Positions 1 through 48,204 of a DNA stretch of 64,000 bases are shown in pieces (the stretch's first letter is position 1; the number at the start of each line of letters is the position of its first letter). The DNA is taken from assembly GCA_964016885.1 (NCBI GenBank), contig OZ024743.1, positions 243,474,001 to 243,538,000 of the forward strand. Direction: 5' to 3'. Position numbers and translations under genes: made by a program. Below the pieces are notes generated by a model, which saw nothing but the letters and a program-made list of their open reading frames with translations, was not told where the DNA came from and did no database searches. The stretch is from Eledone cirrhosa. Its lineage: Eukaryota.

Positions 1-3000
1 GCCATGTCCACATTAACTACTAGGTCATGTCCACATTAACTACTAGGCCATGTCCACATTAACTACTAGGCCATGTTCACATTAACGACGAGACCATGTC
101 CATATTAACCACTAGGCCATGTCCACATTAACTACTAGGCCATGTCCACATTAACTACTGGGTCATGTCCACATTAACTACTAGGCCATGTCCACATTAA
201 CCACTAGGTCATGTCCACATTAACTACTAGGCCATGTCCACATTAACTACTAGGCCTTGTCCACATTAACTACTAGGCCATGTCCACATTACCTTCTAGG
301 TCATGTCCACATTAACTACTAGGTCATGTCCTCAATAACTACTAGGTCATCTCCACATTAACCACTCGGCCATGTCCACATTAACCACTAGGTCATGTCC
401 ACATTAACTACTAGGCCATGTCCACATTAACCACTAGGGCATGTCCGCATTAACCACTAAGCCATGTCCACATTAACCACTAGTTCACGTCCACATTAAC
501 TACTAGGCCATGTCCACATTAACCACCAGTTCATGTCCACATTAACTACTAGGCCATGTCCACATTAACCACTAGGGCATGTCCGCATTAACCACTAAGC
601 CATGTCCACATTAACCACTAGGTCATGTCCACATTAAGTACTAGGTCATGTCCACATTAACTACTAGGTCAAGTGCACATTAACCACTAGGTCATGTCCA
701 CATTAACTACTAGGCCATGTCCACATTAATTACTAAGCAATGTCCACATTAACTACTAGGTCATGTCCACATTAACCACTAGGCCATGTCAACATTAACT
801 ACTAGGTCATGTCCACATTAACCACTAGGCCATGTCAACATTAACTACTTGGTCATGTCCACATTAATACTAGGTAATGTTCACATTAACCACAAGCCAT
901 GTCCACATTAACTACTAGGCCATGTCCACATTAACTACTAGGTTATGTCCACATTAAGTACTAGGCCATGTCCACATTAACTGCAGGCCATCTTCACATT
1001 AACTACGAGACCATGTCCACATTAACTAGTAGGCCATGTCCACATTAATTATTAGGTCATGTCCTCATTAACTACTAGGCCATGTCCACATTAAGTACTA
1101 GGTCATGGCCACATTAACCACTAGGCCATGCCCACATTAACTTCTATGCCATGTCTGCATATAGCACTAGGCCATGTCCACATTAACCACTAGGCCATGT
1201 CCACATTAACTACTAGGTCATATCCACATTAACTACTAATCTATGTCCACATTGACTACTAGGCCATGTCCACATTAACTACTAGGCCATGTCCACATTA
1301 ACTACTAGGGCATGTCCACATTAACCAATAGGCCATTTCCAAATTAACTACTAGGCCATGTCCACATTAACCTCAAGGTCATGTCCACACTAACTACTAG
1401 GCCATGTCCAACTTAACCTCTAGTTCATATCCACATTAACTACTAGTCCATGTCCACATTAACTACTATGCCATTTCCACATTAATTACTAAGCCATGTC
1501 CACATTAACTACTAGGTCATGTCCACATTAACCACTAGGCCATGTCCATATTAACTACTAGGACATGTCCACATTAACCACTAGGCCATGTCCACATTAA
1601 CCACTAGACCATGTCCACATTAACTACTAGGCCATGTCCACATTAACTGCTAGGCCATGTCCACATTAATCACTAGGCCATGTCCACATTAACTACTAGG
1701 CCATGTCAACATTAACCACTAGGACATGTCTACTTTAAATACTAGGCCATGTCCACATTAACCACAAGGCCATGTCCACATTAAATACTAGGCTATGCCC
1801 ATATGAACTACTAGGCCATGTCCACATTAACTACTAGGTCATGTCCACATTAACTACTAGGCCATGTCCACATTAACTACTAGGCCATGTTCACATTAAC
1901 GACGAGACCATGTCCATATTAACCACTAGGCCATGTCCACATTAACTACTAGGCCATGTCCACATTAACTACTAGGTCATGTCCACATTAACTACTAGGC
2001 CATGTCCACATTAACTACTAGGCCTTGTCCACATTAACTACTAGGCCATGTCCACATTACCTTCTAGGTCATGTCCACATTAACTACTAGGTCATGTCCT
2101 CAATAACTACTAGGTCATCTCCACATTAACCACTCGGCCATGTCCACATTAACCACTAGGTCATGTCCACATTAACTACTAGGCCATGTCCACATTAACC
2201 ACTAGGGCATGTCCGCATTAACCACTAAGCCATGTCCACATTAACCACTAGTTCACGTCCACATTAACTACTAGGCCATGTCCACATTAACCACCAGTTC
2301 ATGTCCGCATTAACCACTAAGCCATGTCCACATTAATTACTAAGCAATGTCCACATTAACTACTAGGTCATGTCCACATTAACCACTAGGCCATGTCAAC
2401 ATTAACTACTTGGTCATGTCCACATTAATACTAGGTAATGTCCACATTAACCACAAGCCATGTCCACATTAACTACTAGGCCATGTCCACATTAACTACT
2501 AGGTTATGTCCACATTAAGTACTAGGCCATGTCCACATTAACTACTAGGCCATGTCCACATTAACTACTAGGGTATGTCCACATTAACCAATAGGCCATT
2601 TCCAAATTAACTACTAGGCCATGTCCACATTAACCTCAAGGTCATGTCCACATTAACTACTAGGCCTTGTCCAACTTAGCCTCTAGTTCATATCCACATT
2701 AACTACTAGTCCATGTCCACATTAACTACTATGCCATTTCCACATTAATTACTAAGCCATGTCCACATTAACCACAAGCCATGTCCACATTAACTACTAG
2801 GCCATGTCCACATTAACTTCTAGGCCATGTCTGCATATAGCACTAGGCAATGTCCACATTAACCACTAGGCCATGTCTACATTAACTACTAGGCCATGTT
2901 CACATTAACCACTAAACCATCTCCACATTAACTACTAGGCCATATCCACATTAACTACTACTCCATGTCCACATTAACTACTAGCTCATGTCTACACTAA

Positions 3001-6000
3001 TCACAAGGCCATGTCTGCATTAGCTATAGGCCATGTGCACATTAACGACTAGGCCATGTCCACATTAACTACTGATCTATTTCCACATTAACAACTAGGT
3101 CATTTCCACATTAAGCACTAGGACATATCCATATTAACTACTAGTCCATGTCCACATTAACTACTAGGCCATGTCCACATTAACTACTAGGTCATATCCA
3201 CATTAACTACTGATCTATTTCCACATTAATAACTAGGCCATGTCCACATTATCTACTAGGTCATATCCACATTATCTACTAATCTATTTCCACATTAACT
3301 ACTATGCCATGTCCACATTAACTACTAGGCCATGTCCACATTAACTACTAGGCCATGTCCACATTAACCAATAGGCCATGTCCAAATTAACTACTAGGCC
3401 ATGTCCACATTAACCACTACACCATGTCCTCATTAACTAGTAGGCCATGTCCACATTAACTACTAGGCCATGTCCACATTAACTACTAGGCCATGTCAAC
3501 ATTAACTACGACGCCATGTCCACATTAATTACTAGGCCATATCCGCATTAACTACTAGTCCATGTCCACATTAACTACTAGGCCATGTCCACATTAATTA
3601 CTAAGCCATGTCCACATTAACTACTAGGTCATGTCCACATTAACCACTAGGCTATGTCCATATTAACTACTAGGACATGTCCACATTAACCACTGGGCCA
3701 TGTCCACATTAACCACTAGACCATGTCCACATTAACTACTAGGCCATGTCCACATTAACTGCTAGGCCATGTCCACATTAATCACTAGGCCATGTCCACA
3801 TTAACCACCAAGCCATGTCCACATTAACCACTAGGTCATGTCCACATTAACTACTAGGTTATGTCCACATTAACTATTAGGTTATGTCCACATTAACTAC
3901 TAGGCCATGTCCACATTAACTACAAGGCCATGTTCACATTAACTACTAGGCCATGTCCACATTAATTACTAGGTCATGTCCACATTAACCACTAGGCCAT
4001 ATCCACATTAACCAATAAGCCATGTGCACATTATCTACTAGGCCATCTCCACATTAACCACTAGGCGATGCCCTACATTAACTACTAGGCCATGTCCACT
4101 TTAACTACTAGGCCATGTCTACATTAACCACTAGGCCATGTTTACATTAACTACTAGGCCATGTTCCCACTAACAATAAGGCCATGTCTGCATTAACTAT
4201 AGGCCATGTGCACATTAACGACTAGGCCATGTCCACATTAACTACTAGGCCATGTTCACATTAACTACTAGGCCATGTCCACATTAACCACTAGGCCATG
4301 TCTACATTAAATACTAGGCCATGTCCACATTAACCACAAGGCCATGTCCACATTAACTACTAGGCCATATCCACATTAACTACTAGTCCTTGTCCACATT
4401 AACTACTAGGCCATGTTCACATTAACTACTAGGTCATGTCCACATTAACTACTAGGCCATGTTTGCATATAGCACTAGGCCATGTCCACATTAACTACTA
4501 GGGCATCTCCACATTAACCAATAGGCCATCTCCACATTAACTACTAGTCCATGTCCTCATTAACTACTAGGCCATGTCCACATTAATTACTAAGCCATGT
4601 CCACATTATCTACTAGGCCATGTCCACATTCACTACTAGGCCATGTCTACATTAATTACTAAGCCATGTCCACATTAACTACTAGGCCATCTCCACATTC
4701 ACTACTAGGCCATGTCCACATTAATTACTAAGCCATGTCCACATTAACTACTAGGTCATGTCCACATTAACCACAAGCCATGTCCACATTAACTACTAGG
4801 CCATATCCACATTAACTACTAGGCCATGTCCACAGAAACTACTAGGCCATGTCTGCATATAGCACTAGGCCATGTCCACATTAACTAGTAGGCCATGTCC
4901 ACGTTAACCACTAGGCCATGACCCCATTAACTATTATGCCATGTGCACATTAACTACTAGCTTATGTCCACATTAACCACTAGGCCATGTCCACATTAAC
5001 CACTAGACCATGTCCACATTAACTACTAGGCCATGTCCACATTAACTGCTAGGCCATGTGCACATTAATCACTAGGCCATGTCCACATTAACCACCAAGC
5101 CATGTCCACATTAACCACTAGGCCATGTCCACATTAACTACTAGGTTATGTCCACATTAACTACTAGGCCATGTCCACATTAACTACTAGGTCATGTCCA
5201 CATTAACTACTAGGCCATGTCCATATTAACTACTAGGCCATGTCCACATTAACCACTAGGTCATGTCCACATTAACCGCTAAGCCATGTCCATGTTAACC
5301 AATAAGCCATGTGCACATTATCTACTAGGCCATGTCCACATTAACCACTAGGCCATGTCTGCATTAACTATAGACCATGTGCACATTAACGACTAGGCCA
5401 TGTCCACATTAACTACTAGGTCATGTCCACATTGACTACTAGGTCAAGTCCATATTAACCACTAGGTCATGTCCACATTAACTACTAGGCCATGTCCACA
5501 TTAACTGCTAGGCCATGACCACATTAACTACTAGGCCATGTCCACATTAACCTCAAGGTCATTTCCACATTAACTACTAGGCCATGTCCACATTAACCTC
5601 TAGGTCATGTCTACATTAATTACTAGTCCATGTCCACATTAACTACTATGCCATGCCCACATTAAAGACTAGGCCATCTCCACATTAGCTGCTAGGCCAT
5701 GTCCACATTAATTACTAAGCCATGTCCACATTAACTACTAGGCCATGTCCACATTAACTACTAGGCCATGTCCACATTAACTACTAGGCCATGTCCACAT
5801 TAATTAATAAGCCATGTCCACATTAACTACTAGGTCATGTCCTCATTAACTACTAGGTTATGTCCACATTAACCACAAGCCATGTCCACATTAACTACTA
5901 GGCCGTCTCCACATTAACCACTAGGCCATGTCGACATTAATTACTAGGCCATGACCACATTATCTACTAGGCCATGTCCACATTAGCCACTAGGCCATGT

Positions 6001-7595
6001 CCACATTAATTACTAGGCCATGACCACATTAACTACTAGGCCATGTCCATATTAACTACTAGGCCATGTCTACATTAACTACTAGGCCATGTCCACATTA
6101 ACTACTAGTTAATATCCACATTAACCACTAGGCCATGTCCATATTAACTACTAGGCCATGTCCTCATTAACTACTAGGCCATGTCCATATTAACTACTAG
6201 GCCATGTCTACATTAACTACTAGGCCATGTCCACATTAACTACTAGTTAATATCCACATTAACCACTAGGCCATGTCCATATTAACTACTAGGCCATGAC
6301 CACATTAACTACTAGGCCATGTCCATATTAACTACTAGGCCATGTCCACATTAACTACTAGTTAATATCCACATTAACTACTAGGTCATGTCCACATTAA
6401 CTACTAGGCCATGTCCACATTAACTACTAGGCCATGTCGACATGCACTACTAGACCATGTCCACATTAACTACTAGGTCATGTCCTCATTAACTACTAGG
6501 CCATGTCCAGATTAACTACTATGCCATGTCCACATTAACTACTAGGCCATGTCCATATTAACCACTAGGCATGTCCACATTAACTATTAGGCCATGTCCA
6601 CATTAACTACTAGGCCATGTCCACATTAACCCACTAGGTCATGTCCAAATTAACTATTAGGCCATGTCCACATTAACCACAAGCCATGTCCACATTAACT
6701 ACTAGGCCATGTCCACATTAACTACTCAGCCATGTTCACATTAACCACTAGGCCATGTCCACATTAACCACTTGGTCATGTCCCCATTAACTACTATGCC
6801 ATGTCGACATTAACTACTAGGCCGTCTCCACATTAACTACTAGGCCATGTCCACATTAACTACTAGGCCATGTCCACATTAACTAGTAGGCCATGTCCAC
6901 ATTAACCACTAGGCCATGTCCACATTAATTACTAGGCCATGTCCATATTAACCACTAGGTCATGTCCACATCAACTACTAGGCCATGTCCACATTAACTA
7001 CTATGCCATGTCTACATTAACTACTAGGCCATGTTCACATTAACTACTAGGCCATGTCCACATTAACCACTAGGCCATGTCCACATTAATTACTAGGCCA
7101 TGTCCACATTAACTACTAGGTCATGTCGACATTAACGACTGGGCCATGTCCACATTAACTACTAGGTCAAGTCCACATTAACTACTAGGCCATGTCCACA
7201 TTAACTACTAGGCCATGTCCACATTAACTACTGGGCCATGTCCACATTAACTACTAGGCCATGTCCACATTAACCACAAGCCATGTCCACATTAACTACT
7301 AGGCCATGTCCACATTAACTACTAGGCCATGTACACATTAACCACTAGGTCATGTCCACATTAACCACTAGGCGATGTCCACATTAACTACTAGGCCATG
7401 TCCACATTAACTACTAGGCCATGTCCACATTAACCACTAGGTCATGTCCACATTAACTACTAGGCCATGTCCACATTAACTACTAGGCCATGTCCACATT
7501 AACTACTAGGCCATGTCCACATTAACTACTAGGCCATGTCCACATTAACCACTAGACCATGTCCACATTAACTACTAGGCCATGTCAACATTAAC
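1..7595. repeat. 23-bp tandem satellite (consensus GCCATGTCCACATTAACTACTAG), roughly 330 copies, extends past window start
   Basis: Direct 23-nt periodicity with point variants throughout. Confidence 0.98.
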
Positions 7596-9164: not shown

Positions 9165-11186
9165 ATATATAGTATTAAGGATACTATTTATGGTTATGTA
9201 TATACTAAAACCTTTTATAGTTATATATATTTTAAACCCAAAACAGTGGAAGACAGTAATTTATTACTACCTTATTACCAGTAAGATAAATAGCTCAATG
9301 TAATAACATCAGTTGTTCTACAGAGCAGTTATATAGAAATTACATGAATCAAAGTTCTGTTCAAACTATTTATTAGCTTACAATTGTTTCTTCCAAACCG
9401 AGGTTTGAAGTCTTCGGAGCAATTTTTCAATGATTGTTTACATACATGACCTCCTTTCCAACACAAGAGACATACAGAAACATATGTATATATCGATGTA
9501 CAGTGGGTTGACATCCATTATAATATTTTAGCATGGCAATTTACATTCAAAGATTAAAGTCATATTAAAAGAAAATTAAAACAAGATTAAAGTTAAAATA
9601 CAACATTGGCAGTTTACGAAGATAATGCAAGAGGATAGTTTGAAGTAGTTAGTGTATGCAATAGTTGCACGTGGGGCATGCACGTGTGTCTTATTTATAT
9701 AAGATTAATGTGCAGCAAGGTGTTATATGCAATACAAGCACTTTAAGCAGGTAATCAAGAGTATTATGGGGGTTGTACTGGTAAAGTATTTTTTATGTAT
9801 GATATAGAAGCTTGTGTGCAGAGAAATATTAAAAATGAGAAGCAAAATAATGTTATGGTTTTCGTATACACCACCATTTTCACAATCCAGGAAACGTAAT
9901 ATATAGATTATATGTTCTTCACATAATCAACGATGATTAAATATTGGATGCTTGATGAATTAGGTTAGATTATTACAGCTTGTTGTTCTTTAATCCAATT
10001 TTATAGAGCAGGTTGTTTTTGTTGCGAGAATTAACATCGTTTTATTTTCCGGAAGTGTGTGTGTGATTAAGGGGAGTTAATGCGTGAGGGGAGGTAACTA
10101 GTTGATTTCTATAACTAAATTTATTATCCCAAAGTACATTAAATGGTGTCCCAAATGAGTCCCTATCATATAAGGTTATAAACAGTTTCTAAATTTAGGA
10201 TAGGATAGGATACTTACCGGGTGTCTGTGTGTGTTTATATTCGTTTATTTATTTGTTTATTTACATGTTACTGGTTGGTTGTTTGTTCTATGTGCGTGTG
10301 TGTTTTCATTTTGTCCTTAATTGTAAGTTGTGATGTTGCTGTTCCACTCATGTTTTCTATTTAATTTTGGTTGTAATTCTTTTATGTTTATTGCCTCTGT
10401 GATTTGTCTAAACATTGCGTCTTTTCTGTGTGTAGATTCTATTTTTATTTCTATGTTCTCTAATTTACCCTTATGTTCTATTTTAGCATGTTGGTAGAGT
10501 GCAGATGATTCTTTACTATCTTGAAGGTCTCGCTAGTGTTCATTTATCCGTTCCCCTACACTACGAGCTGTCTCACCTATGTACACTATATTTTTATCTC
10601 TACATTGTCCTTCAGTACATCTTATGCTATATACTACATTTCTAGTTTTACAGTTAATATGGGGGCTTAATTTACAGGTTATACATTTCTTATCTATACA
10701 GGGGGTCTTTGAAAAGGGTATGTCTTGCTAATAAGTGTTTTTATGGAGGTACCTGGTCTTTCTACTATCTTAATATTGAGTTTATGTTTATCTAGGGCCC
10801 TTCTAAATTTGTAAGCTAATTCACCTCTAGGAGTTGTATCGATGAACATTACACTCTGGTATTTATTGCTATCATACCATGAGTTTATTCTATTAGCCTT
10901 ATTCCTAGTTCTTTCTATTCTATTCCAAAATTTACTCCTATACAAGGGGCAGGTCCTATTTGCGTCATTATTTACCACTTTTTCCCATTTGGTTCTGGCT
11001 CCTCTATACACTCTGATTTTATCTCTCTGATTGTAACCAGAGAACTGCATACGGTGGATGAAGTGTTGTATGTGTCTCTCTAGTTCTTCTGGGTTGCACA
11101 TGCGGGACACGTTTCTCATCACCCGTACCAAATCCGCAATCAGTATGTTGATTTTGGTATGGTCCGAAACAGCTGAGTTTCGGTGG
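9165..11186 (-). mobile_element. 5'-truncated Penelope-like retroelement (RT C-terminus + GIY-YIG endonuclease, decayed) with long 3' region
   Basis: ORF 10694-11389 internal part (HRNSAVSDHTKINILIADLVRVMRNVS...QFSGY). Manual translation of ~10690-10350 gives CITC..CKTRNVVYSIRC..C..YIGETARSVGERINEH*, a GIY-YIG motif with a stop. Flanked by (TA)n. Confidence 0.8.
9376..9420 (-). ncRNA. Degenerate type I hammerhead ribozyme motif
   Basis: gct CCGAAGA CTTCAAACC-TC-GGTTTGGAA GAAAC AATT GTA agc: stem I 3 bp, stem II 8 bp, palindromic stem III; core U4 changed to C. Confidence 0.6.
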
Positions 11187-11264
11187 ATCATATATATATA
11201 TAAACCCATACGAGCGTGGAATATGGACGTTAAACGATGATGATGATATATATATATATATATA

Positions 11265-11727
11265 TTAGAAAATAGAATAGCTTTCACCGTATTGTTGACT
11301 AAAGGAATTTTAGCCTGATAATGGGGTTTAGAACCCTCAGATAAATGGAAAAAGATGAGTATTGATGTACATGGGAGTCGAACCCACATCTTTAGTCAAA
11401 AATACGGTGAAAGCTATTCTATTTTCTAATTTCAAACCTGCTCACTGTTTCAAACATACTTACTTGCCATTTAAACTCGCTAAGAATGTAGCTTCTAATT
11501 TGAATGGAAAGATATGGGTGATGTTCTGGTGTAATGGTAGCACAGTGGTCGTGATAACCAAAGGTGTGGGTTCGACTCCCATGTACGTCAATACTCATCT
11601 TTTTCCATTTATCTGAGGGTTCTAAACCCCATTATCAGGCTAAAATTCCTTTAGTCAAAAATACGGTGAAAGCTATTCTATTTTCTAATTTCAAACCTGC
11701 TCACTGTTTCAAAACATACTTACTTGA
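11265..11727. mobile_element. Small (TA)n-flanked element with tRNA-like head, inverted 5' segment and partial tandem repeat
   Basis: 11265-11389 is the reverse complement of 11564-11689; 11390-11466 repeats directly at 11649-11727; diverged homolog at 32321-32580. Confidence 0.75.
11520..11590 (+). ncRNA. tRNA-like cloverleaf (probably SINE head or pseudo-tRNA), followed by TTTTT at 11600-11604
   Basis: GATGTTC/GTACGTC acceptor (1 mismatch), GTGT/GCAC D-stem, TGGT/ACCA anticodon stem, GTGGG-TTCGACT-CCCAT T-arm; loop CGTGATA lacks U33. Confidence 0.6.
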
Positions 11728-11959
11728 TATATATATATATATATATATATTATTAAATTTATTTTTGTTATATTTTATATTTTATTTTTTAAATTTTGTT
11801 ATTGCCTCCTCCTTATTGATGACGTTTTTTATGTAAACTCCCCCCATTGTACTTGTCCCACTTTTGATGCCCTGGTGGCAAATAAAAAGAAAGTTATATA
11901 TATTTCGTTTCTGAATTTGTTTAGCAAGATTCTTTATCTGAAATCGTGTGTTGAAACCG

Positions 11960-12133
11960 ATATTGTTATACTTTGGGAGGGTCATGTTGCCAATAAGAAA
12001 CACACGCACCAGTTGCTTTCACTTCAATTTATTATATATTTATAAATTTACAAATATATAATAAATTGAAGTGAAAGCAACTGGTGCGTGTGTTTCTTAT
12101 TGGCAACATGACCCTCCCAAAGTATAACAATAT
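11960..12133. repeat. Near-perfect 174-bp palindrome (82-bp arms)
   Basis: 11960-12041 is the exact reverse complement of 12052-12133. Confidence 0.92.
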
Positions 12134-12140
12134 ATATATA

Positions 12141-12648
12141 TATAACACAGTAAAAAGAGACGGACACAGATATATAGCTATATGCATTCAAATCATAGGA
12201 GACAGAAACCGTCAGAGTGAAGAAAATGGTGATAAAAATAGTACGGTTCACAGAACTCAAAAGGATAAATAGAGATATACAAACCCACTGTGATAGTTAT
12301 CATGCATACAGACACCTTTCGGGTAGAACTGTTTCGCAACTAAGTGAAGAGAATTACTGGTTCGAATGCTTTTCAATGGATGCTTCCACCCGGCACGCGA
12401 TAACCATGTGCTTTCTCTCTTAACACATTTATGTTATTTAGTCTTCTAAGAAATTTAATAATGTGGGGTTTACTGGTCTGGATGCATGATAGTTATCATA
12501 GTCAATTCATATATCTCTATTTATCCTTTTGAGTTCTGTGAACCGTACTATTTTCGTCAGTATTTTCTTCACCCTGGCAGTTTCTGTCCCTTATGATTTG
12601 AATGCATATAGTTATATATCTGTGTTCACCTCTCTTTACTGTGTTATA
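12141..12648. mobile_element. MITE-like element with ~170-bp imperfect terminal inverted repeats
   Basis: TATAACACAGTAAA...CATGCATACAGAC matches the reverse complement GTCTGGATGCATG...TTTACTGTGTTATA; ~160-bp spacer. Confidence 0.75.
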
Positions 12649-12742: not shown

Positions 12743-14117
12743 AAGAGTAAGAGCACTCAGTCCATAGGACAAGTTTAGTATAAATAATTACAGCAGTGAC
12801 ATAAACAGGTACTCAAGTTTCGTTTGGTTCTGGGCCCTAATTCATTCAGCCTGTCATGAGAAAAATAAAAACAAAGATAGCCGTCTAGGGTTGATTGTGC
12901 TCTCCTTATAGGAATATAACATAAGAGTTTACACAGGGGCCGGTAATTTAGAAAAAAAGTTTAGAAAAAGGGTTTTTTTTTAATTATAGGGTAACACCAA
13001 GGGAGGTAACTCTTGAAAGACCATAGTCAATTTTGAATGAAAATAGAAGCACAATAATTTCTTCCAGTTGACTCAAAAGATCCAATTTCACTGAATTACA
13101 ATATAGTCAGTAAATAAAAAGATACTTCTAGACCTATTAATCAAGCCTAAGCCATTTATCCAAAATTTCATCACATGGGGACAACCGCCAAAGCAATCAA
13201 GCCGTGTATTGAGGCAGTGCTTATCCGAAGCTAATTGTGAGAGTATCCACCATTTTTTGGAATAACAAAGTCGACAAAATTTCGACCCATTTACGTAGGC
13301 AGTAGATCTTTCCAAAATACGCCATTTGATGGAAAAGGGGGTGCCATTGTTCTTAAGGCCCCATACATGGTTTACGAGCTGGGTGGTGTGTTTTTTATTG
13401 GGATATCTCAATGTTGTTTCGTGATTCAGGTACCGGTTTTTAAACTTGCTCTCGGACATACCAACATAGGTCCAGGCTTCAGTTTGGTGGTTCTGGTTGG
13501 TGTAGGTAACCTCTGCTTGGTATATCACTGCCAGAGGGTTGCACTGTTGGTCTAGTGGACATGTTTCAGGTCTTCTACATAAGCATCCGTACAGTGGAGG
13601 GCTTTTGTGTTTGCCGGTGATGTAGGTTTTTGCATTGTTGGTGCAAAAGTATCCTATTTTTACTATATGGCGATTAAATATCTTTCAACAGGGAAATGAA
13701 GATCTATGAGGCCTAAGAATGTTTTGCCTACATTTGTTTTCACATTAAGTGAGAAAGTTGGTGCAAACCATATGACATCTTTACGTCTAGGTTTTTTTCT
13801 TATTAGGTGTAGGGCAGTGATCTGGAGAGTATGTGATATTTTCAGAGAAGCTGCTGTTCTTCAGCACTAAATTATAGTAGGGTGCTGCCCTATCAAATAT
13901 GGCTTTGCTGGAGGAGAGGTTGGAGACCCTCTTACTAATCTTGTTAATGAGGTTTTTAAAAACTATAGGGGGGTGGCTAGAGTCCTTATGGATGTACCGA
14001 AGTTTCTCACTGGGTTTGTGGGATGATCTACACGTGCGTGTCTGTAGGTCTAAATTAACATCTAGGAAGTTGACCCTGCTACCTATTATGCCATTAATAC
14101 TGACGCTAAGGATATAG
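12741..14117 (-). mobile_element. 5'-truncated Penelope-like retroelement (RT motif FLDV, thumb, GIY-YIG), frameshifted
   Basis: ORF 13088-13528 IYQAEV...YVGMSESKFKNRYLNH...WGLK...IKWRIL...CRLC; upstream manual translation VNFLDVNLDL...YIHKDSSHPP; ends at (TA)n. Confidence 0.88.
12805..12854 (-). ncRNA. Hammerhead ribozyme-like motif in Penelope 3' end
   Basis: ACAGG CTGAATGA attagg..ccaaac GAAAC TTGA GTA CCTGT: perfect 5-bp stem I, one extra base in core, weakened stem II. Confidence 0.6.
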
Positions 14118-16244
14118 CCGCCACCCCTAGTGTAGGCAACAAATTAGAGTGTTTGGCTAGGAGAGAGGCCTGTATCACCTAACGGAGCAACCAATTATCA
14201 GGTCAACGGTAGGGGACTCTGCCTGCATCAGTGGGACACTACACCTATGAGAGTCATCGCAAGTCATCACAGTATTTCTGCTAATAGAAAACATGACTGG
14301 TACAAACAACAGCTCCATAGTTAGAGGCCATGATTTTCTGTCCTTGCAGGGTCCCGAGGAAGGTTCAACTGCTTCCTATGAAGCTATGTCGACCAAAAAT
14401 AGATGTTCTTGAAGATGACACTAGGTTGGAGGCAAGGTAACTTCAGCTGGCACCAGTAACAGATGTGTAGAAGACATATATATGTGTGTGTGTGTGATCG
14501 GGAGCTAACAAGCTAGATGTGTCTGTACAAAAATCTTTGATAAGTTGCTTGTCATCACTTTACCTTTCTTCAAGGCCATCTTCATGTCCCAAACACTTGT
14601 TCTCACTCTAACCCTACCCCCCTTGACAAGCAGCATGTAGTGGCCATTGTTACCCATGCCACTTTTGCTATGCTCTCATCTCTACTCACCTCACTGCCTC
14701 TTTCTGTTCAGCTGAGAACCCAATGATTGCCCTTGTGCTGGCGCCATAGTGAAATACACCCAGTCTACTTTGTAAAGTGGTAGTGCTGTTACCATCATAA
14801 AATGCACCCAGTTCATGCTGCAAAGTGGTTAGCATTAGGAAAGGGTATCCAACCATAGAAATTATGAAACATATGAGTAAGACGAGGTTGTGTGAGATAG
14901 CTAGTCTTGGGATGTGGCAACCTGTCCAATCCATACCAGCATGGGAAACAGATGTAAAACAATGATGTTGATGATTATACAGATTCACATGCATCATAGT
15001 AGAGATATAAACTTCCTTTGACACCACGAATAATAAATTAGACCCAATGTGTAAATAATCTATTAGATCCATTAAGAAACTGCCTGTCACACATTGGTCC
15101 CTCTCTCTCCCTGAAGAACAATAAAAGAACATCAAACAGGACATTTTGTTTCATCAGTTTGTTTCAGCAATAACTCCCAACTCTCACAATCTCTGTTCCA
15201 TGTTCAACTACCCTCCAAAATAACCCGATACATCTACTACACCCCAGAATTACAACATCCAGTGTCTGGGTTTTTAGTGCCTTAGGCTAGTCCTACAATG
15301 TGCGCCCCAATCTACCAATTAGAATACTTTCATCTTACATTTCAGAAAGCTGACAAACCTAGTTTTTTACACTAGTTCTGCCTACAATGTATTTTCTAGC
15401 ATACACTCCACACTCACCTATGTTAAATCATATTACAAGTTATGACTCTCCATTAATTTGTATATTTCCACAATGCTGCTACAAGGCAAAGATGTTTAGT
15501 GATTTATTTATTGATTGCAGGAAATTATATATTAATTTGATTATACAAAATTGTTATAAAATTGTGATTATTTAAGATTCAATAATGCACCTCGCTCGGG
15601 TCTATGCCCTAGGTGGCTGCATGGTTGGCCTTAATGATAGCGCCAGCCATGAATATGTTACTTTTACTCTCTCAAACTTTAGTAACAGTTCGGCAGCTGT
15701 ATTTTACTCAGTGCTGTATATATTTTCTGGTACAATTTAGATATTTTTGTGTTGTTGTTTATGATGGGAGGGTGAGATAGTATCAGATTGCTTGCATTTT
15801 ATTTATTTATTTATCTATTTTCTCTAATTATAGGGAGATGTGACAGTAATTTTTAGCAGGTTGAGCGACCTCATAAAGGTCATGTCACAGGCTCTTAACT
15901 CCTGGTGGAATTGTAGGGACAGCATAGTAATATAAGTCTTGGGCTCTTTGAACCTGGAGGAGACCATTCCTCTCCACACCTGAACATAGTCAAAGTAGTC
16001 AATTTCTTTCAGTGTACGAGAGAAGGTGAGAAAGGAAGTGCGTGCGAGAGAAAGAGGGGGGGATCCACGCCAGTACCGAATTGGTACTTTATTTATCGAC
16101 CTCGAAAGGATAAAAGGTACAGCTGACTTCGGCCAGAACAAAAACCACAAACAATTCAATTCGACGCTTTAACGACTTTGACAATTTACCGTCTATGTGA
16201 GATAAAATAATAGCATAAATATCCCTTCGATTTGAAGCCAGCCA

Positions 16245-32320: not shown

Positions 32321-32580
32321 AAATTAGGTAGTAACATCTGCTTATGCGTTATTTGACTAAATATAATTAATCTGTTAGTTGGGATTTTAAAAAACCTTCC
32401 GAATGGAAAAAGGATGAGTATTGACGTACATAGGACACAAACCCACATCTTTGGTTTGCCGAACCGATGTGCTACCATTACTAATTCTATTTAGTCAAAT
32501 ATAGCATAAGCACATGTTACTACCTAATTTTCAAATTTGCTCGCCATTTGTAAACAAAGCCTGCTTTGTGTTTCCCCATT
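32321..32580. mobile_element. Second, diverged copy of the tRNA-headed (TA)n-flanked element, with inversion
   Basis: Reverse complement of 32402-32481 matches 11531-11610; 32321-32368 is inverted against ~32484-32530. Confidence 0.7.
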
Positions 32581-32595
32581 TATATATATATATAT

Positions 32596-35500
32596 AAAGA
32601 CAGATTCTACGAGACACTGATGCTCGCTACCTCCCAAATAACCGACAGTGACTATATAGTTATTGCAGGCGACCTAAATGGTCACGTTGGACAACATTGT
32701 GACGGCTATGACGGAATCCATGGAGGCTATGGGTTCGGTACTAGAAATGAGGAAGGCTCCAGAATCCTGGAATTCTGTGACGCAAATAACTTAACTATCT
32801 GTAACACTAACTTCAAAAAACGAGACAATCACTTGATCACCCATAGATCGGGGGAACACACAAGCCAGGTAGATTATATCCTTACCAGAAGACGTGACAG
32901 AGTGTCTGTTGTTAACACTAAATCCCACCCCCATGAAGAATTCACCTCCCAACATAGACTGATAATTAGCGACCTCATAGTCAGGACGAGACGTACTAGA
33001 CAGCGGAAGAGGACTATCCTCAGGAGAAAAATATGGAAGCTAAAGGACCCCATAGCCAGAAATAAATTTCAAAGCATATTACTTGACGCTTTCGACAGTA
33101 AGGAAGAGCAATTAGAGTCGTATAATATAGAGGAACAGTGGGAATTCCTGAGAGCAAACCTGCTGACGGCGGCAGACGAAGTCTGTGGCTGGAGCAGGCC
33201 TGTAGGTAGGAGGAGAGTAACATGGTGGTGGAACAGTAAGGTGGAGGAGTCAATTAAGGCCAAAAAGCAGGCTTGGAAAGTATGGCGGGATGGGGGAAGT
33301 AGAGAAGACTATCAAGTGGCCAGGAGGGAAGCTAGGAGACAAGTGTACTTCGCAAGAAGGGAAGCAGAGGAAAGAAAGTTCAAGCATGTTCTACAACGTG
33401 AGGACCAAAAACGTGAGGTGTTCAGGATTGCCAGGCAATGTGTCAAGGAAAACCGTGATATTGTCGGGGAGAAGTGTGTACTTAACGATGATGGCATACT
33501 TGCCATCACCGACGCTGATAAGAAGGTAGCTTGGAAGTGTCACTACGAAAGGCTTCTAAATGAGGAGAACAAATGGGAGAAAGACAGTCTCCCCCAGATC
33601 GATCCAATAGAGGGACCAGCAGTGTTAGTTGAAGGTAGTATAATAAGTAAGGCAATCAAAGATATGAAGACGGGTAAGGCGGCTGGTCCTTCGGAAATAG
33701 TTGCTGAGATGCTGAAGGCATCTGGTTCGGTGGGACACACCATGGTCACCCGGATAGTTAACCAAGTCGTACAGAATGGGGTTGTTCCGAAGGAATGGCG
33801 TAGCAGCATCATCGTTAACTGCTATAAGGGAAAAGGAGATGCCCTAGATAGGAGTAACTATAGAGGCATTAAATTAATCGACCAGGTCATGAAGGTCACG
33901 GAAAAAGTAATAGCGCAACTAATCAGAGAGAGAATTGATCTAGATGAAATGCAGTTCGGGTTTGTGTCAGGCAAAAGTACCACAGACGCTCTTTTCATTG
34001 TACGACAACTACAGGAGAAGTACCTAGCTAAAAGTAAACCCCTATACTTAGCTTTCGTCGACTTGGAGAAAGCCTTCGACAGAGTCCCCCGTTCCATTAT
34101 CTGGTGGTCTCTTAGAAAACTAGGTGTTGACGAATGGCTTGTGAGAGCTATACAAGCCATGTATAAAGAAACAGTCAGTAAGGTTAGAATTAACAACGAA
34201 TATAGTGAAGAGTTTAGCGTAAAAGTTGGTGTCCATCAGGGCTCTGTTCTTAGCCCCCTACTATTTATTATTGCCCTTCAGGCTATAACAGAGGAGTTCA
34301 AGACCGGCTGCCCATGGGAACTCCTATACGCAGATGATCTAACGCTCATAGCTGAATCAATGACCGAACTAGAGAAGAAATTCCAAACATGGAAGCACGG
34401 CCTAGAATCAAAAGGCCTTAAAATTAACCTGGCTAAGACTAAAGTTCTAGTTTGTAGGAAAGAAAATAAGGCGGCGGTCCCATCTGGGAAATGGCCATGC
34501 TCAGTGTGCAGGAAAGGCGTAGGTAGAAACTCCATTTTATGTCCCAAATGCAAAGTATGGGTGCATAAAAGATGTAGTGGGATCACAGGTAAGCTAACTA
34601 AGAACATAGATTTTACATGTGGCCGGTGCTCTGGTGCAATAAGTAGCAGCAAGTGCCCACAAAATACTAGCTCCTTCAACTGCGCAGAGGGTTCTATAGA
34701 AATAGTGGACAGCTTCCGTTATCTGGGTGACAAAATCAGCAGTGGGGGAGGGTGCTCTGAAAGTACAGTAGCTAGAGTCAGAACTGGATGGAAAAAGTTC
34801 AGAGAGCTTTTACCACTATTAGCCGCTAGAGGGTTCTCCCTAAAAATGAAAGGCAGGTTATACGATGCCTGCATACGAACAGCAATGCTGCATGGCAGTG
34901 AGACCTGGGCATTGTGTGCAGAGGATATACGCAGACTAGAGAGGAACGAAGCTTGCATGCTCCGCTGGATGTGCAATAGTAATATATGTGAACGGCAAAG
35001 CATAAACGAACTAAGGAAAAAATTAGAAATAAGAGGGATCAGATGTTGTTTACTCGAGAGAAGGCTACGTTGGTACGGTCACGTGATGCGCATGAAAGAC
35101 GACAGCTGTATAACAAAGTGCAGGGTAATAAAGATAGACGGTAGCCACGGAGTAGGCAGACCCAGAAAAACATGGGACGAGCTGATAAATTCCGACCTCA
35201 CACGCTTACACCTCTCCAAGACAATGTCACTGGACCGAGACCTTTGGCGGTACTCAGTAATAGAGAAGACCCGCCTTACCTAAATACAAAGTAAAAACCT
35301 ACTACAGTCAGTAGGCATCTCTATCAAAACACACCCCCGTCCCACCACCTCCACCCCACCCACACCGCCCCTTTCAATGTAAAGTTATGTTGGTCCCACA
35401 ACATCCAGGCCGAAACAAATGAGATCGTGTAGGTGTCACGACAAAAAACACACAGTCCACGCTGTAAATGTGGCCGTGTAGGCAACACGGTAAAAACCTC

Positions 35501-38627: not shown

Positions 38628-39011
38628 GTTAGTATATTCCTTTTCTTTTTTACCGATTTCAGTCATTGAATTGCAACCATGCTTTGAGAGGTTTAGTCAA
38701 TTATATAATGCTTTGTCTGGTACTTATTTTAACTTGTAAGGGGACAAATGGCAAAGTATACTTGGATATAAAGAGATGTGACTGATCAAAATCAAACACC
38801 ACAAGATATTTTAGTATACACATGATGATGGTGACTGATTCTGCTATCTCTTTCACACACACAACTTTGCTAAACTCTAACCTTACAAGCAAGTCTAAGT
38901 TCCTTATAATCAGCAAACTTAGAATCCTTCAATGATATAACTGAATGCACTTGTTTTGTCTTTCTTCTTCTTTAAACACTCACTTGTATAGCTTAAGCCT
39001 TTAGCATTTAC

Positions 39012-41976
39012 AGACAATCACTTGATCACCTATAGATCGGGGGAACACACAAGCCAGGTAGATTATATCCTTACCAGAAGACGTGACAGAGTGTCTGTTG
39101 TTAACACTAAATCCCTCCCCCATGAAGAATTCACCTCCCAACATAGACTGATAATTAGCGACCTCATAGTCAGGACGAGACGTACTAGACAGCTGAAGAG
39201 GACTATCCTCAGGAGAAAAATATGGAAGCTAAAGGACCCCATAGCCAGAAATAAATTTCAAAGCATATTACTTGACGCTTTCGACAGTAAGGAAGAGCAA
39301 TTAGAGTCGTATAATATAGAGGAACAGTCGGAATTCCTGAGAGCAAACCTGCTGACGGCGGCAGACGAAGTCTGTGGCTGGAGCAGGCCTGTAGGTAGGA
39401 GGAGAGTAACATGGTGGTGGAACAGTAAGGTGGAGGAGTCAATTAAGGCCAAAAAGCAGGCTTGGAAAGCATGGCGGGATGGGGGAAGTAGAGAAGACTA
39501 TCAAGTGGCCAGGAGGGAAGCTAGGAGACAAGTGTACTTCGCAAGAAGGGAAGCAGAGGAAAGAAAGTTCAAGCATGTTCTACAACGTGAGGACCAAAAA
39601 CGTGAGGTGTTCAGGATTGCCAGGCAATGTGTCAAGGAAAACCGTGATATTGTCGGGGAGAAGTGTGTACTTAACGATGATGGCATACTTGCCATCACCG
39701 ACGCTGATAAGAAGGTAGCTTGGAAGTGTCACTACGAAAGGCTTCTAAATGAGGAGAACAAATGGGAGAAAGACAGTCTCCCCCACATCGACCCAATAGA
39801 GGGACCAGCAGTGTTAGTCCAGGGTAGTACAATAAGCAAGGCAATCAAAGATATGAAGACGGGTAAGGCGGCTGGTCCTTCGGAAATAGTTGCTGAGATG
39901 CTGAAGGCATCTGGTTCGGTGGGACACACCATGGTCACCCGGATAGTTAACCAAGTCGTACAGAATGGGGTTGTTCCGAAGGACTGGCGTAGCAGCATCA
40001 TCGTTAACTGCTATAAGGGAAAAGGAGATGCCCTAGATAGGAGTAACTATAGAGGCATTAAATTAATCGACCAGGTCATGAAGGTCACGGAAAAAGTAAT
40101 AGCGCAACTAATTAGAGAGAGAATTGATCTAGATGAAATGCAGTTCGGATTTGTGTCAGGCAAAAGTACCACAGACGCTCTTTTCATTGTACGACAACTA
40201 CAGGAGAAGTACCTAGCTAAAAGTAAACCCCTATACTTAGCTTTCGTCGACTTGGAGAAAGCCTTCGACAGAGTCCCCCGTTCCATTATCTGGTGGTCTC
40301 TTAGAAAACTAGGTGTCGACGAATGGCTTGTGAGAGCTATACAAGCCATGTATAAAGAAACAGTCAGCAAGGTTAGAATTAACAACGAATATAGTGAAGA
40401 GTTTAGCGTAAAAGTTGGTGTCCATCAGGGCTCTGTTCTTAGCCCCCTACTATTTATTATTGCCCTTCAGGCTATAACAGAGGAGTTCAAGACCGGCTGC
40501 CCATGGGAACTCCTATACGCAGATGATCTAACGCTCATAGCTGAATCAATGACCGAACTAGAGAAGAAATTCCAAACATGGAAGCACGGCCTAGAATCAA
40601 AAGGCCTTAAAATTAACCTGGCTAAGACTAAAGTTCTAGTTTGTAGGAAAGAAAATAAGGTGGCAGTCCCATCTGGGAAATGGCCATGCTCAGTGTGTAG
40701 GAAAGGCGTAGGTAGAAACTCCATTTTATGTCCCAAATGCAAAGTATGGGTGCATAAAAGATGTAGTGGGATCACAGGTAAGCTAACTAAGAACATAGAT
40801 TTTACATGTGGCCGGTGCTCTGGTGCAATAAGTAGCAGCAAGTGCCCACTAAATACTAGCTCCTTCAATTGCGCAGAGGGTTCTATAGAAATAGTGGACA
40901 GCTTCCGTTACCTGGGTGACAAAATCAGCAGTGGGGGAGGGTGCTCTGAAAGTACAGTAGCTAGAGTCAGAACTGGATGGAAAAAGTTCAGAGAGCTTAT
41001 ACCACTATTAGCCGCTAGAGGGTTCTCCCTAAAAATGAAAGGCAGGTTATACGATGCCTGCATACGAACAGCAATGCTGCATGGCAGTGAGACCTGGGCA
41101 TTGTGTGCAGAGGATATACGCAGACTAGAGAGGAACGAAGCTTGCATGCTCCGCTGGATGTGCAATAGTAATATACGTGAACGGCAAAGCATAAACGAAC
41201 TAAGGAAAAAATTAGAAATAAGAGGGATCAGATGTTGTTTACTCGAGAGAAGGCTACGTTGGTACGGTCACGTGATGCGCATGAAAGATGACAGATGTAT
41301 AACAAAGTGCAGGGCAATAAAGATAGACGGTAGCCACGGAGTAGGCAGACCCAGAAAAACATGGGACGAGCTGATAAATTCCGACCTCACACGCTTACAC
41401 CTCTCCAAGACAATGTCACTTGACCGAGACCTTTGGCGGTACTCAGTAATAGAGAAGACCCGCCTTACCTAAATACAAAGTAAAAACCTACTACAGTCAG
41501 TAGGCATCTCTATCAAAACACCCCCCCGTCCCACCACCTCCACCCCATCCACACCGCCCCTTTCAATGTAAAGTTATGTTAGTCCCACAACATCCAGGCC
41601 GAAACAAATGAGATCGTGTAGGTGTCACGACAAAAAAACACAGTCCACGCTGTAAATGTGGCCGTGTAGGCAACACGGTAAAAACCTCCCAGCCCCACAC
41701 TGTAAATGTGGTTGGTGTTAGGAAGGGCATCCAGCTGTAGAAAACCCGCCAGACAGTCCACGCTGTAATGTGGCCGTGTAGGCAACACGGTAAAAACCTC
41801 CCAGCCCCACACTGTAAATGTGGTTGGTGTTAGGAAGGGCATCCAACTGTAGAAAACCCGCCAGACAGTCCTATGCGAGCAAGACAACCACTCTTGCCTC
41901 AAGTGGGAAAACCCCCGTCCAAACCCATGCAAGCGTGGAACACGGACGCTAAACCTGATGATGATGATGATGATGA
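39012..41976 (+). mobile_element. Second young RTE LINE copy, more 5'-truncated, ORF open to 41472
   Basis: Nearly identical to 32823-35792; sits inside a TTAA MITE (38994-42175). Confidence 0.96.
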
Positions 41977-47500: not shown

Positions 47501-48204
47501 GAACAGCGATGTTGCATGGTAGTGAGACCTGGGCGCTGAAAGTGGAAGACTTACGTAGATTAGAGAGAAACGAAGCCTGCATGCTCCGATTGATGTGTAA
47601 TAGTAATATACGCGAACGACAAAGCATAAATGAATTGAGAGAGAGACTGAGAATAAGAGGAATCAAATGCTGTGTGCAGGAGAGGTGGTTGCGTTGGTAT
47701 GGACATGTGATGCGTATGAAGGATGACAGCTGCATAAAAAGGTGCAGAGCACTAGAAGTCGATGGAAACCGCGGAGTGGGGAGACCCAAGATGACCTGGG
47801 ATGAGGTGATAAAAGCCGACCTTACCTCTCAAAGGCGATGACACACGACTGTGACCTCTGGCATCACGCAGTAATACAGAGTACCTGACCTCCCATGGGT
47901 ACAAGCTGAAGCATATAGACAATATGCCCCCACACCCCCCACTGCAAGGTGGTCGTGGAGGTGCCACAGCAAAAAAGCACCCAGCCCATACTGTAAAGTG
48001 GACGTGTAGGCGCCACGAAAAAGCACCCAGCACTCACTGTAAATGAGGTTGGTGTTAGGAAGGGCATCCAGCTGTAGAAATCAAGCCAAATCAGTTCCTG
48101 TATGAGCAAGGCATGGTCAGCCGACCAGACACTGCCCACAACAGGACAACCCGTCTAACCCATGTTAGCGTGGAAGAACGGACGTAAAACAGTGATGATG
48201 ATGA
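44520..48204 (+). mobile_element. Older near full-length RTE LINE (APE-RT-PHD) with frameshifts and stops
   Basis: ORF pieces 44942-47841 from LRVGTINV..CVQETRW through YADD to GRPK.TW; (GAT)n tail; 5' boundary approximate. Confidence 0.92.

What the first reader, a model, noticed from the sequence alone, without database searches (positions are those of the whole stretch)
11265..11727. tRNA-headed, (TA)n-inserted element with Penelope-style architecture: candidate Penelope-mobilised SINE
Seen: a full cloverleaf (11520-11590) with A/B boxes and a T5 terminator lies inside a ~260-bp unit. Its last ~77 bp are repeated in tandem (11390-11466 = 11649-11727) and it is preceded by an inverted ~125-bp copy. 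There is no LINE-type tail, and both flanks are (TA)n. Established: partial tandem repeats plus inverted 5' segments are typical of Penelope-like insertions, whereas known SINEs borrow LINE tails. Inference: a Pol III-driven non-autonomous element copied by the GIY-YIG retroelements that flank it.
Basis: partly seen in the sequence, partly recalled or inferred. Interest (0 to 1): 0.75.

Follow-up and report, generated by a model that had tools for sequence, protein, structure and literature searches.

The report
tRNA-mimic hitchhiker of Penelope retrotransposons
A 260-base non-coding repeat with a tRNA-shaped core has over a thousand copies set in TA microsatellites in the tandem, back-to-back layout of Penelope retrotransposons, which likely copy it, and most copies break off beside tRNA base 58, likely because the cell methylates the RNA there as it does real tRNAs.

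Summary
This is one copy of a young 260-bp family (1,308 exact hits of one 22-mer). Copies have a fixed right end at (TA)n (65 of 68 elements), variable 5' truncation and head-to-tail multimers. Of 65 copies, 44 carry an inverted arm, and 43 of those lack the last ~40 nt: the one-sided 'tail' of Penelope-like elements (PLEs), also seen in the young (TA)n-targeting PLE next door. No hammerhead, LINE tail or end shared with a PLE was found. Forward arms stop beside tRNA position 58 in 34 of 47 cases, but in 6 of 37 in a subfamily with U58 (p=3e-7): likely a host m1A58 mark on the RNA template. Pol III drive is doubtful (T5-T6 ten bases after the tRNA; broken B box in that subfamily). No RNA data were available. 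The scan has already reported this family in this genome, and analogues in other genomes. Verdict: ribozyme-free variant of PLE-borne non-autonomous repeats; closest in print are Sm-alpha and the retrozymes.

The parts
11246..11263 (.). left (AT)n target run
   Evidence: 47 of 65 copies have a TA run on the left
11264..11396 (-). inverted arm, unit positions u223 down to u91; starts without the tail, at an AT that matches the target
   Evidence: 43 of 44 inverted arms lack the tail
11390..11396 (.). 7-nt microhomology shared by the inverted and forward arms
11390..11466 (+). partial upstream unit (u183-260), the pseudo-LTR-like part
11467..11726 (+). complete 260-bp unit
11479..11492 (+). small leader hairpin (predicted); stem kept and loop changed in subfamilies 1-3
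11501..11519 (+). 5' arm of the predicted stalk that extends the acceptor stem
11520..11590 (+). tRNA-like cloverleaf, non-canonical anticodon loop; A box 11527-11537, B box 11569-11579
11575..11575 (+). T-loop A58 (u109); most family copies end just 3' of it (this copy reads through)
11591..11609 (+). 3' arm of the stalk, containing the T5 run (11600-11604)
11690..11726 (+). 'tail' (u224-260), present on the forward arm only; fixed right end
11727..11750 (.). right (AT)n target run
   Evidence: 58 of 65 copies against 19% background
10217..11193 (-). context: 5'-truncated copy of a young PLE ('PLE-A': RT + GIY-YIG, hammerhead core in the pLTR); candidate helper class, not shown to be the helper
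11895..12133 (.). context: PLE-A end-only back-to-back insertion with the tail on one arm, the same layout as the finding

Best explanation
This is a non-coding 260-bp repeat that is likely copied in trans by a Penelope-like reverse transcriptase/GIY-YIG endonuclease from a multi-unit or end-joined RNA, with its internal tRNA mimic likely folded and methylated by the host. Shown: copy number, fixed tailed right end, tail-less inverted arm, junction-crossing multimers, (TA)n flanks, conserved stems, no canonical hammerhead, and the A58-dependent pile-up of 5' ends. Inferred mechanism: (1) the enzyme cuts (TA)n and primes cDNA from both target ends, one at the tail end (u260) and one 37-50 nt further in (u210-223), at AT microhomologies; (2) both cDNAs copy the same template towards its 5' side; (3) about two thirds stall at m1A58 and are joined to each other or to the target at the nearest AT/GTAC microhomology (u114-116); (4) the rest read through the tRNA and across the unit junction, giving partial tandems that can serve as new sources. 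The RNA likely comes from read-through of tandem copies rather than from terminator-bounded Pol III transcription. The 19-bp stalk would hold the two ends of a monomer cut or started at tRNA +1 side by side for ligation or a template jump (least certain step). Odds: PLE mobilisation ~0.8; m1A58 as the cause of the stop ~0.6; Pol III as the main source of the template ~0.3.
For: Architecture in pattern-picked loci: right end within u250-u4 in 65 of 68 elements; inverted arm in 44 of 65; 43 of 44 inverted arms without the tail; 38 of 44 repeat at least 40 positions of the forward arm and 14 of 44 are longer than it; 9 of 65 forward and 11 of 44 inverted arms cross the unit junction; (AT)3 on the right in 58 of 65 against 19% background. 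Subfamily 2 behaves alike (20 of 24 inverted, all 20 tail-less). PLE-A shows the same tail-on-one-arm layout in (TA)n (L054, window 11895-12133), matching the description in PMC8557442. Arms of one insertion share rare variants: 24 against a null mean of 1.0 (max 7) for inverted pairs, 6 against 0.5 (max 4) for tandem pairs. Stop zone -2..+17 around position 58: forward arms 34 of 47 (A58) against 6 of 37 (U58), Fisher p=2.7e-7; all arms 78 of 117 against 8 of 53. The sequence 3' of position 59 is identical in these subfamilies, which controls for microhomology. m1A58 is a known RT stop (PMC11401796, passage). Stalk -26.5/-20.2/-25.5 kcal/mol, reached by 0, 2 and 0 of 2000 shuffles; changes between subfamilies mostly keep the pairs. 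Arms ending at tRNA +1: 16 of 63 against 8.8% expected.
Against: No autonomous partner with a shared 3' end among 38 PLE loci or among the clustered TA-adjacent ends from all loci held, although such similarity is usual for non-autonomous Chlamys (PMC8557442). The modal stop is 5-6 nt 3' of A58, not 1 nt, so a trimming step has to be assumed. Subfamily 3 is older (about 90% to its consensus against 3.5% median divergence), differs at positions 58 and 59, and may have had another helper RT, so loop shape or a T-loop cut could explain the contrast. It has its own broad stop zone in the anticodon/D arms (14 of 41). The tRNA +1 excess rests on 13 of 51 loci, mostly subfamilies 2 and 3 (subfamily 1: 3 of 23 arms), and arms of one locus are not independent. 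Shared variants between arms could also come from fold-back copying or gene conversion. The 26-unit array L117 has variants shared by non-adjacent units, so it is not one pass round one circle. A long stalk may hinder RNase P rather than help (recalled). The Pfam matches of PLE-A are below the curated cut-offs.
Confidence: 0.6

Rival explanations
1. Sm-alpha-style permuted SINE: Pol III starts at the tRNA of one tandem unit, reads through the T5 and supplies the template; a PLE inserts it.
For: Intact A and B boxes in subfamilies 1 and 2. Excess of arms ending at tRNA +1, strongest in subfamily 2 (7 of 13 arms, 4 of 8 loci). Precedent: Sm-alpha is said to be Pol III-transcribed from the upstream unit of a tandem (PMC6765202).
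Against: T5/T6 ten bases after the tRNA in all three subfamilies and no depletion of T runs (observed 2, 1, 3 against expected 2.1, 2.5, 2.5). Subfamily 3 spread with the B-box A replaced and has two T6 runs. 47 of 63 arms pass tRNA +1 without stopping.
Confidence: 0.2
2. PLE-borne, but the pile-up near u114 is the true 5' end of an RNA cut in the T loop, or a purely structural stall of a canonical T loop, not a methyl block.
For: The U58/G59 change also removes the T54-A58 pair (established tRNA structure); the edge of the distribution lies at about u108-111.
Against: By then the RT has already unwound the longer stalk and acceptor helix with little loss (hazard 0.001-0.006 per nt against 0.055 in the A58 zone). 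An RNase Z cut is excluded because most ends keep tRNA bases u114-124.
Confidence: 0.12
3. Ordinary LINE-mobilised SINE (Tx1/L1, R4 or RTE helper) with twin-priming inversions and a TA target.
For: Fixed 3' end and 5' truncation fit any target-primed reverse transcription. LINE-type RT elements are present in the window.
Against: Inverted arms duplicate the forward arm (38 of 44) and lack a defined tail, and arms cross the unit junction; classical twin priming on a linear monomer gives non-overlapping pieces (recalled). No similarity to the window's LINE-type elements.
Confidence: 0.06
4. DNA-level element (Helitron/DINE-like or satellite) spread by rolling-circle or recombination.
For: A 26-unit array with recombination-like shared variants exists (L117).
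Against: Polarised 5' truncation that depends on a tRNA base, conserved RNA stems, no terminal inverted repeats.
Confidence: 0.02

Closest known systems
Schistosome Sm-alpha / Sj-alpha SINE-like elements (PMC2770079 and PMC6765202, passages; primary paper PMC108972 not held)
   Same: Short non-coding repeat with a tRNA-derived part, dispersed and in tandem, promoter permuted relative to the copied unit.
   Different: Sm-alpha carries an active hammerhead; none here. The tRNA stalk, the A58-linked truncation and the tailed or inverted (TA)n insertions are not described in the passages read.
Animal non-LTR retrozymes (PMC7229834, passages; bioRxiv 10.64898/2026.07.22.740005, part 1 of 5 plus passages)
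   Same: 150-450-bp low-GC tandem units, non-coding, proposed to be non-autonomous derivatives of PLEs.
   Different: Defined by a type I hammerhead and circular RNA; no hammerhead here, circular RNA untested, no pLTR homology found. The word tRNA does not occur in the preprint.
Non-autonomous Chlamys PLEs such as MRC1; PLE insertion anatomy (PMC8557442, passages and section 15)
   Same: pLTR-type partial tandems, multicopy head-to-tail insertions, inverted 5' copy, 30-40-bp tail at one end, microsatellite targets, hammerhead dispensable.
   Different: MRC1-type elements usually share 3' ends with a helper, and no tRNA module is described; here the tRNA mimic is the core and no helper end was found.
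Helenus/Ajax/Cassandra TRIMs (PMC10886601, passages)
   Same: Small-RNA-derived sequence placed inside a terminal repeat of a non-autonomous retroelement rather than at its head.
   Different: Those are LTR elements with PBS and 5-bp TSDs, moved by Gypsy or Copia.
tRNA-derived SINEs (SINE2; head and tail definition in PMC10886601)
   Same: tRNA-like A and B boxes, fixed 3' end, RNA intermediate.
   Different: tRNA internal, terminator-like T run right behind it, no LINE tail found, multimeric and inverted copies.

Membership tests
tRNA-derived SINE (SINE2) | tRNA-derived head at the 5' end of the element | tested here: not met
   tRNA at u54-124; 47 of 63 arms that reach it continue into the leader and the previous unit
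tRNA-derived SINE (SINE2) | internal Pol III promoter that drives the whole element | tested here: inconclusive
   boxes intact in 2 of 3 subfamilies; T5/T6 follows in all 3; some ends at +1; no RNA
tRNA-derived SINE (SINE2) | 3' tail borrowed from a LINE | tested here: inconclusive
   no match to the window's LINE-type elements or to TA-adjacent end clusters; not all LINEs of the genome were searched
tRNA-derived SINE (SINE2) | target-site duplication | not testable with these tools
   (TA)n flanks hide TSDs
Non-autonomous Penelope-like element | partial tandem (pLTR-type) and inverted 5' copies | tested here: met
   44 of 65 inverted; 9 of 65 forward arms cross the junction
Non-autonomous Penelope-like element | 30-40-bp tail at one end only | tested here: met
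   43 of 44 (subfamily 1) and 20 of 20 (subfamily 2) inverted arms lack the tail
Non-autonomous Penelope-like element | microsatellite target shared with PLEs of the same genome | tested here: met
Non-autonomous Penelope-like element | 3' end similar to an autonomous PLE | tested here: inconclusive
   none with PLE-A, PLE-B or other clustered ends; Naiad and other PLE families were not retrieved
Non-autonomous Penelope-like element | mobilisation in trans by PLE RT/EN | not testable with these tools
   needs a cell assay
Non-LTR retrozyme | type I hammerhead in each unit | tested here: not met
   no perfect core on either strand of 3 consensuses and no near-core shared between them; both PLE controls give a perfect core
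Non-LTR retrozyme | 150-450-bp tandem non-coding unit | tested here: met
   260, 271 and 286 bp; longest ORF 40-60 aa
Non-LTR retrozyme | circular RNA | not testable with these tools
   no RNA holder listed
Functional tRNA gene | canonical, conserved anticodon loop (U33, purine 37) | tested here: not met
   loop differs among subfamilies and lacks U33 in the three consensuses

The most novel reading that the evidence does not exclude
The tRNA mimic replaces the hammerhead. Host tRNA-processing enzymes (RNase P at +1, then a ligase) cut tandem transcripts into monomers whose ends the stalk clamps into a nicked helix, giving circles that a Penelope enzyme copies. The genome copies then form a fossil record of tRNA modification (m1A58) on a retroelement RNA. 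This would be a ribozyme-free, tRNA-maturation-dependent class of Penelope parasites.
Probability: 0.2. Interest if true: 0.85.

Novelty: new variant of a known kind. Interest (0 to 1): 0.62.

Why it matters
PLE transposition is poorly understood, and the role of the hammerhead is open (PMC8557442, section 15). A 260-nt, ORF-less, ribozyme-less passenger with more than a thousand young copies is a minimal substrate. It shows where the two cDNAs start, that they share one template, and what stops them. If the A58 effect is methylation, genomic truncation points read out an RNA modification in the germ line and show that the template is handled as a tRNA. It would also extend small-RNA-derived parasites from LINE helpers (SINEs) and LTR helpers (Helenus/Ajax/Cassandra) to PLEs more cleanly than Sm-alpha. 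Repeat libraries would likely mislabel such elements as SINEs or tRNA genes.

Tried and rejected
RNA evidence: no RNA holder listed. Contigs of two runs of unrecorded kind were laid; they show the family and its head-to-tail junction but nothing on expression. A DNA search of the genome with the last 80 nt returned no candidates (common words are skipped, so uninformative). Rfam found no ribozyme in the unit, but it also missed the hammerhead of the PLE-A control, so this negative was not used. The first hammerhead descriptor missed the PLE-B control and was replaced by a looser one. Source tRNA: 17 tRNA-like genes from 16 hits gave at best 48 of 76 identical columns, too small a sample to name a parent; no phage match. 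Helper search negative; the single E 1e-7 hit is the element's own arm in L124. Pfam gave nothing for the window's PLE fragments or for PLE-B proteins, so PLE-B is labelled from recalled motifs plus its hammerhead core and end pattern. The ESM Atlas gave no answer. L117 as a single rolling-circle product: rejected. RNase Z cut as the cause of the pile-up: rejected, because the ends keep tRNA bases. Literature searches (listings only unless cited) showed no paper on a ribozyme-free tRNA-bearing PLE passenger or on m1A58-linked truncation of a retroelement. Repbase, Dfam, subscription journals and all supplements (for example the PLE consensus files of PMC8557442) were not seen and may hold this family or its helper.

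Full report
Observation. The window holds (AT)n, an inverted arm 11264-11396, a partial unit 11390-11466, a full 260-bp unit 11467-11726 and (AT)n. The cloverleaf at 11520-11590 passes Rfam's tRNA cut-off (45.3 bits) and is the window's only ARAGORN gene. Unit positions are written u1-u260 from 11467. The tRNA is u54-124, A58 is u109 and the T5 is u134-138.

Family. The genome is 3.0 Gb; the host taxon was not established. A search with the unit gave 1,912 candidates, of which 40 were scored. An exact 22-mer from the 3' part occurs 1,308 times, its reversed control 0 times. To avoid the bias towards full units I analysed loci picked in genome order by that 22-mer. Of 70 loci fetched, 4 were dropped: 3 duplicates, and L126, also a hit and a multi-unit inverted copy. 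That left 66 loci with 68 elements. In 65 of 68 the right end lies at u250-260 or up to 4 nt into the next unit. It is followed by (AT)3 in 58 of 65, against 19% at random places in the same loci. Left ends vary. 44 of 65 have an inverted arm; 43 of 44 of these begin at or before u226 (31 at u209-226), so they lack the last 35-50 nt. 38 of 44 duplicate at least 40 positions of the forward arm and 14 are longer than it. 9 forward and 11 inverted arms cross the u260/u1 junction. Median divergence is 3.5%. Subfamily 2 (271 bp, 227 of 273 columns identical; 29 loci, 24 oriented elements, 7 other clusters) has the same ends. Subfamily 3 (286 bp, 202 of 294 identical, about 90% to its own consensus) was found through a T-loop pattern without A58 (204 hits).

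Neighbours. 10217-11193 is a truncated copy of a young family (19,353 candidates; the 150 scored are 95-98% identical in protein apart from the window's own copy). Its long copies encode RT plus a GIY-YIG domain with an upstream Cys cluster (weak Pfam E 8e-4 and 9e-4, below cut-off), carry a perfect hammerhead core and end in (AT)n. In the back-to-back pair L054, and at window 11895-12133, one arm has a ~60-nt tail and the other does not. This is the anatomy that PMC8557442 gives for PLEs (passages; section 15). 13088-14143 is an old relic, with closest relatives mostly 60-80% identical and carrying stops; a young family at ~46% identity also ends in (TA)n with or without a ~70-nt tail. Neither family shares terminal sequence with the unit (38 loci). 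Nor does any of the top clusters among 1,887 TA-adjacent segments from all loci held. The helper is therefore inferred by anatomy, not identified.

RNA anatomy. The 19 nt before the tRNA are predicted to pair with the 19 nt after it, T5 included, extending the acceptor stem. The stalk persists in all three subfamilies (-26.5, -20.2, -25.5 kcal/mol; 0, 2 and 0 of 2000 shuffles), and in subfamily 3 both arms are longer. Acceptor, D and anticodon stems change mostly by pair-keeping substitutions, while the anticodon loop and small hairpin loops vary. These are three related consensuses, so this is suggestive, not a covariation proof. No perfect hammerhead core exists on either strand, and no near-core is shared, while both PLE controls are found. 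T runs are not depleted, and subfamily 3 has a changed B box and two T6 runs, which weakens the Pol III reading.

Where copying stops. 5' ends pile up at u108-126, mode u114-115. With one anchored method, forward arms that reach the tRNA stop in the zone -2..+17 around position 58 in 34 of 47 cases in subfamily 1 (64 loci) and 6 of 37 in subfamily 3 (69 loci), p=2.7e-7. Over all arms the figures are 78 of 117 (subfamilies 1 and 2) against 8 of 53; the per-base stop rate is 0.055 against 0.008, with 0.001-0.006 in the trailer. I had noted the pile-up and its nearness to A58 before consulting earlier findings; the idea of contrasting a subfamily without A58 came from them and was tested here. 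The bases 3' of position 59 are the same in the subfamilies, so microhomology alone does not explain the peak; it likely sets its exact place. m1A58 is written by TRMT6/61A and stops HIV RT (PMC11401796, passages). Age, position 59, loop shape or a T-loop cut remain alternatives. A smaller excess lies at tRNA +1 (16 of 63 arms against 8.8%; 13 of 51 loci; weak in subfamily 1). It would fit RNA ends or nicks there, from an RNase P cut or a Pol III start.

One template per insertion. Inverted and forward arms of one locus share 24 rare variants (null mean 1.0, max 7 in 200 resamplings); tandem units share 6 (0.5, max 4) (74 and 49 pairs). This fits two cDNAs from one multi-unit or circular RNA, though fold-back copying or conversion could contribute. 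The 26-unit array L117 has the usual inverted head and TA flanks, but its variants are shared by non-adjacent units. It grew later or was copied from a mixed array.

Mechanism and comparison. The best reading is a non-autonomous PLE passenger whose RNA carries a host-modified tRNA fold; steps and odds are in Best explanation. It works like a non-LTR retrozyme (PMC7229834; 10.64898/2026.07.22.740005) but fails that family's hammerhead test. It resembles Sm-alpha (tRNA-derived, tandem, hammerhead-bearing; PMC2770079, PMC6765202). It is not a SINE in the head-and-LINE-tail sense. PMC13282606 (passages), a cephalopod repeat annotation read as a lead, lists many unclassified SINE families but describes nothing of this kind in those passages. 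Eight searches of the held library found no description of this combination (see Tried and rejected); Repbase, Dfam and supplements were not seen. A sequence look-up of earlier findings was empty, but word and place look-ups show that the scan has reported this family at several other places in this genome, and similar elements in other genomes. Those notes are leads, not support.

Verdict. Real; a new variant of PLE-borne non-autonomous repeats; interest 0.62. The helper, the RNA and the role of the tRNA fold remain unshown.

Noticed in passing
window 32323-32581: A second member of the family (subfamily 3, with U58) with an inverted tail-less arm and (TA)n flanks.
   Followed up: partly
window 11895-12133: PLE-A end-only back-to-back insertion, tail on one arm; Rfam reads the hairpin as weak miRNA matches, all below cut-off.
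   Followed up: partly
window 12141-12648: Another 173-nt inverted pair (87%) between TA runs, probably a further PLE-type end insertion.
   Followed up: no
window 10217: The PLE-A copy breaks off here before its pLTR and continues with a splice-donor-like sequence absent from 8 other copies that reach this point.
   Followed up: no
window 11203-11245: Short 3' end with a (GAT)n tail of an abundant repeat (RTE-like, label recalled), into whose TA flank the element is nested.
   Followed up: no
L117:1412-8321: 26 head-to-tail units with an inverted head: a retroelement turning into a satellite.
   Followed up: partly
L190, L199, L205, L212: A fourth subfamily, also with U58, usable as an independent test of the A58 effect.
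   Followed up: no
L003 (- strand, near 2195), L051:5160-5400: A different short TA-nested repeat with a perfect hammerhead core, a candidate true retrozyme or PLE end.
   Followed up: no
window 32554-35283, 38992-41472, 46522-47841: LINE-type RT ORFs with a PHD finger right after the RT domain.
   Followed up: no
window 1-7595: Array of about 331 copies of a 23-bp satellite.
   Followed up: no
L073, L075-L083: Near-identical tRNA-like genes with different anticodons (GAC, AGC, GGC, GGT, GTC), probably another tRNA-derived repeat family.
   Followed up: no
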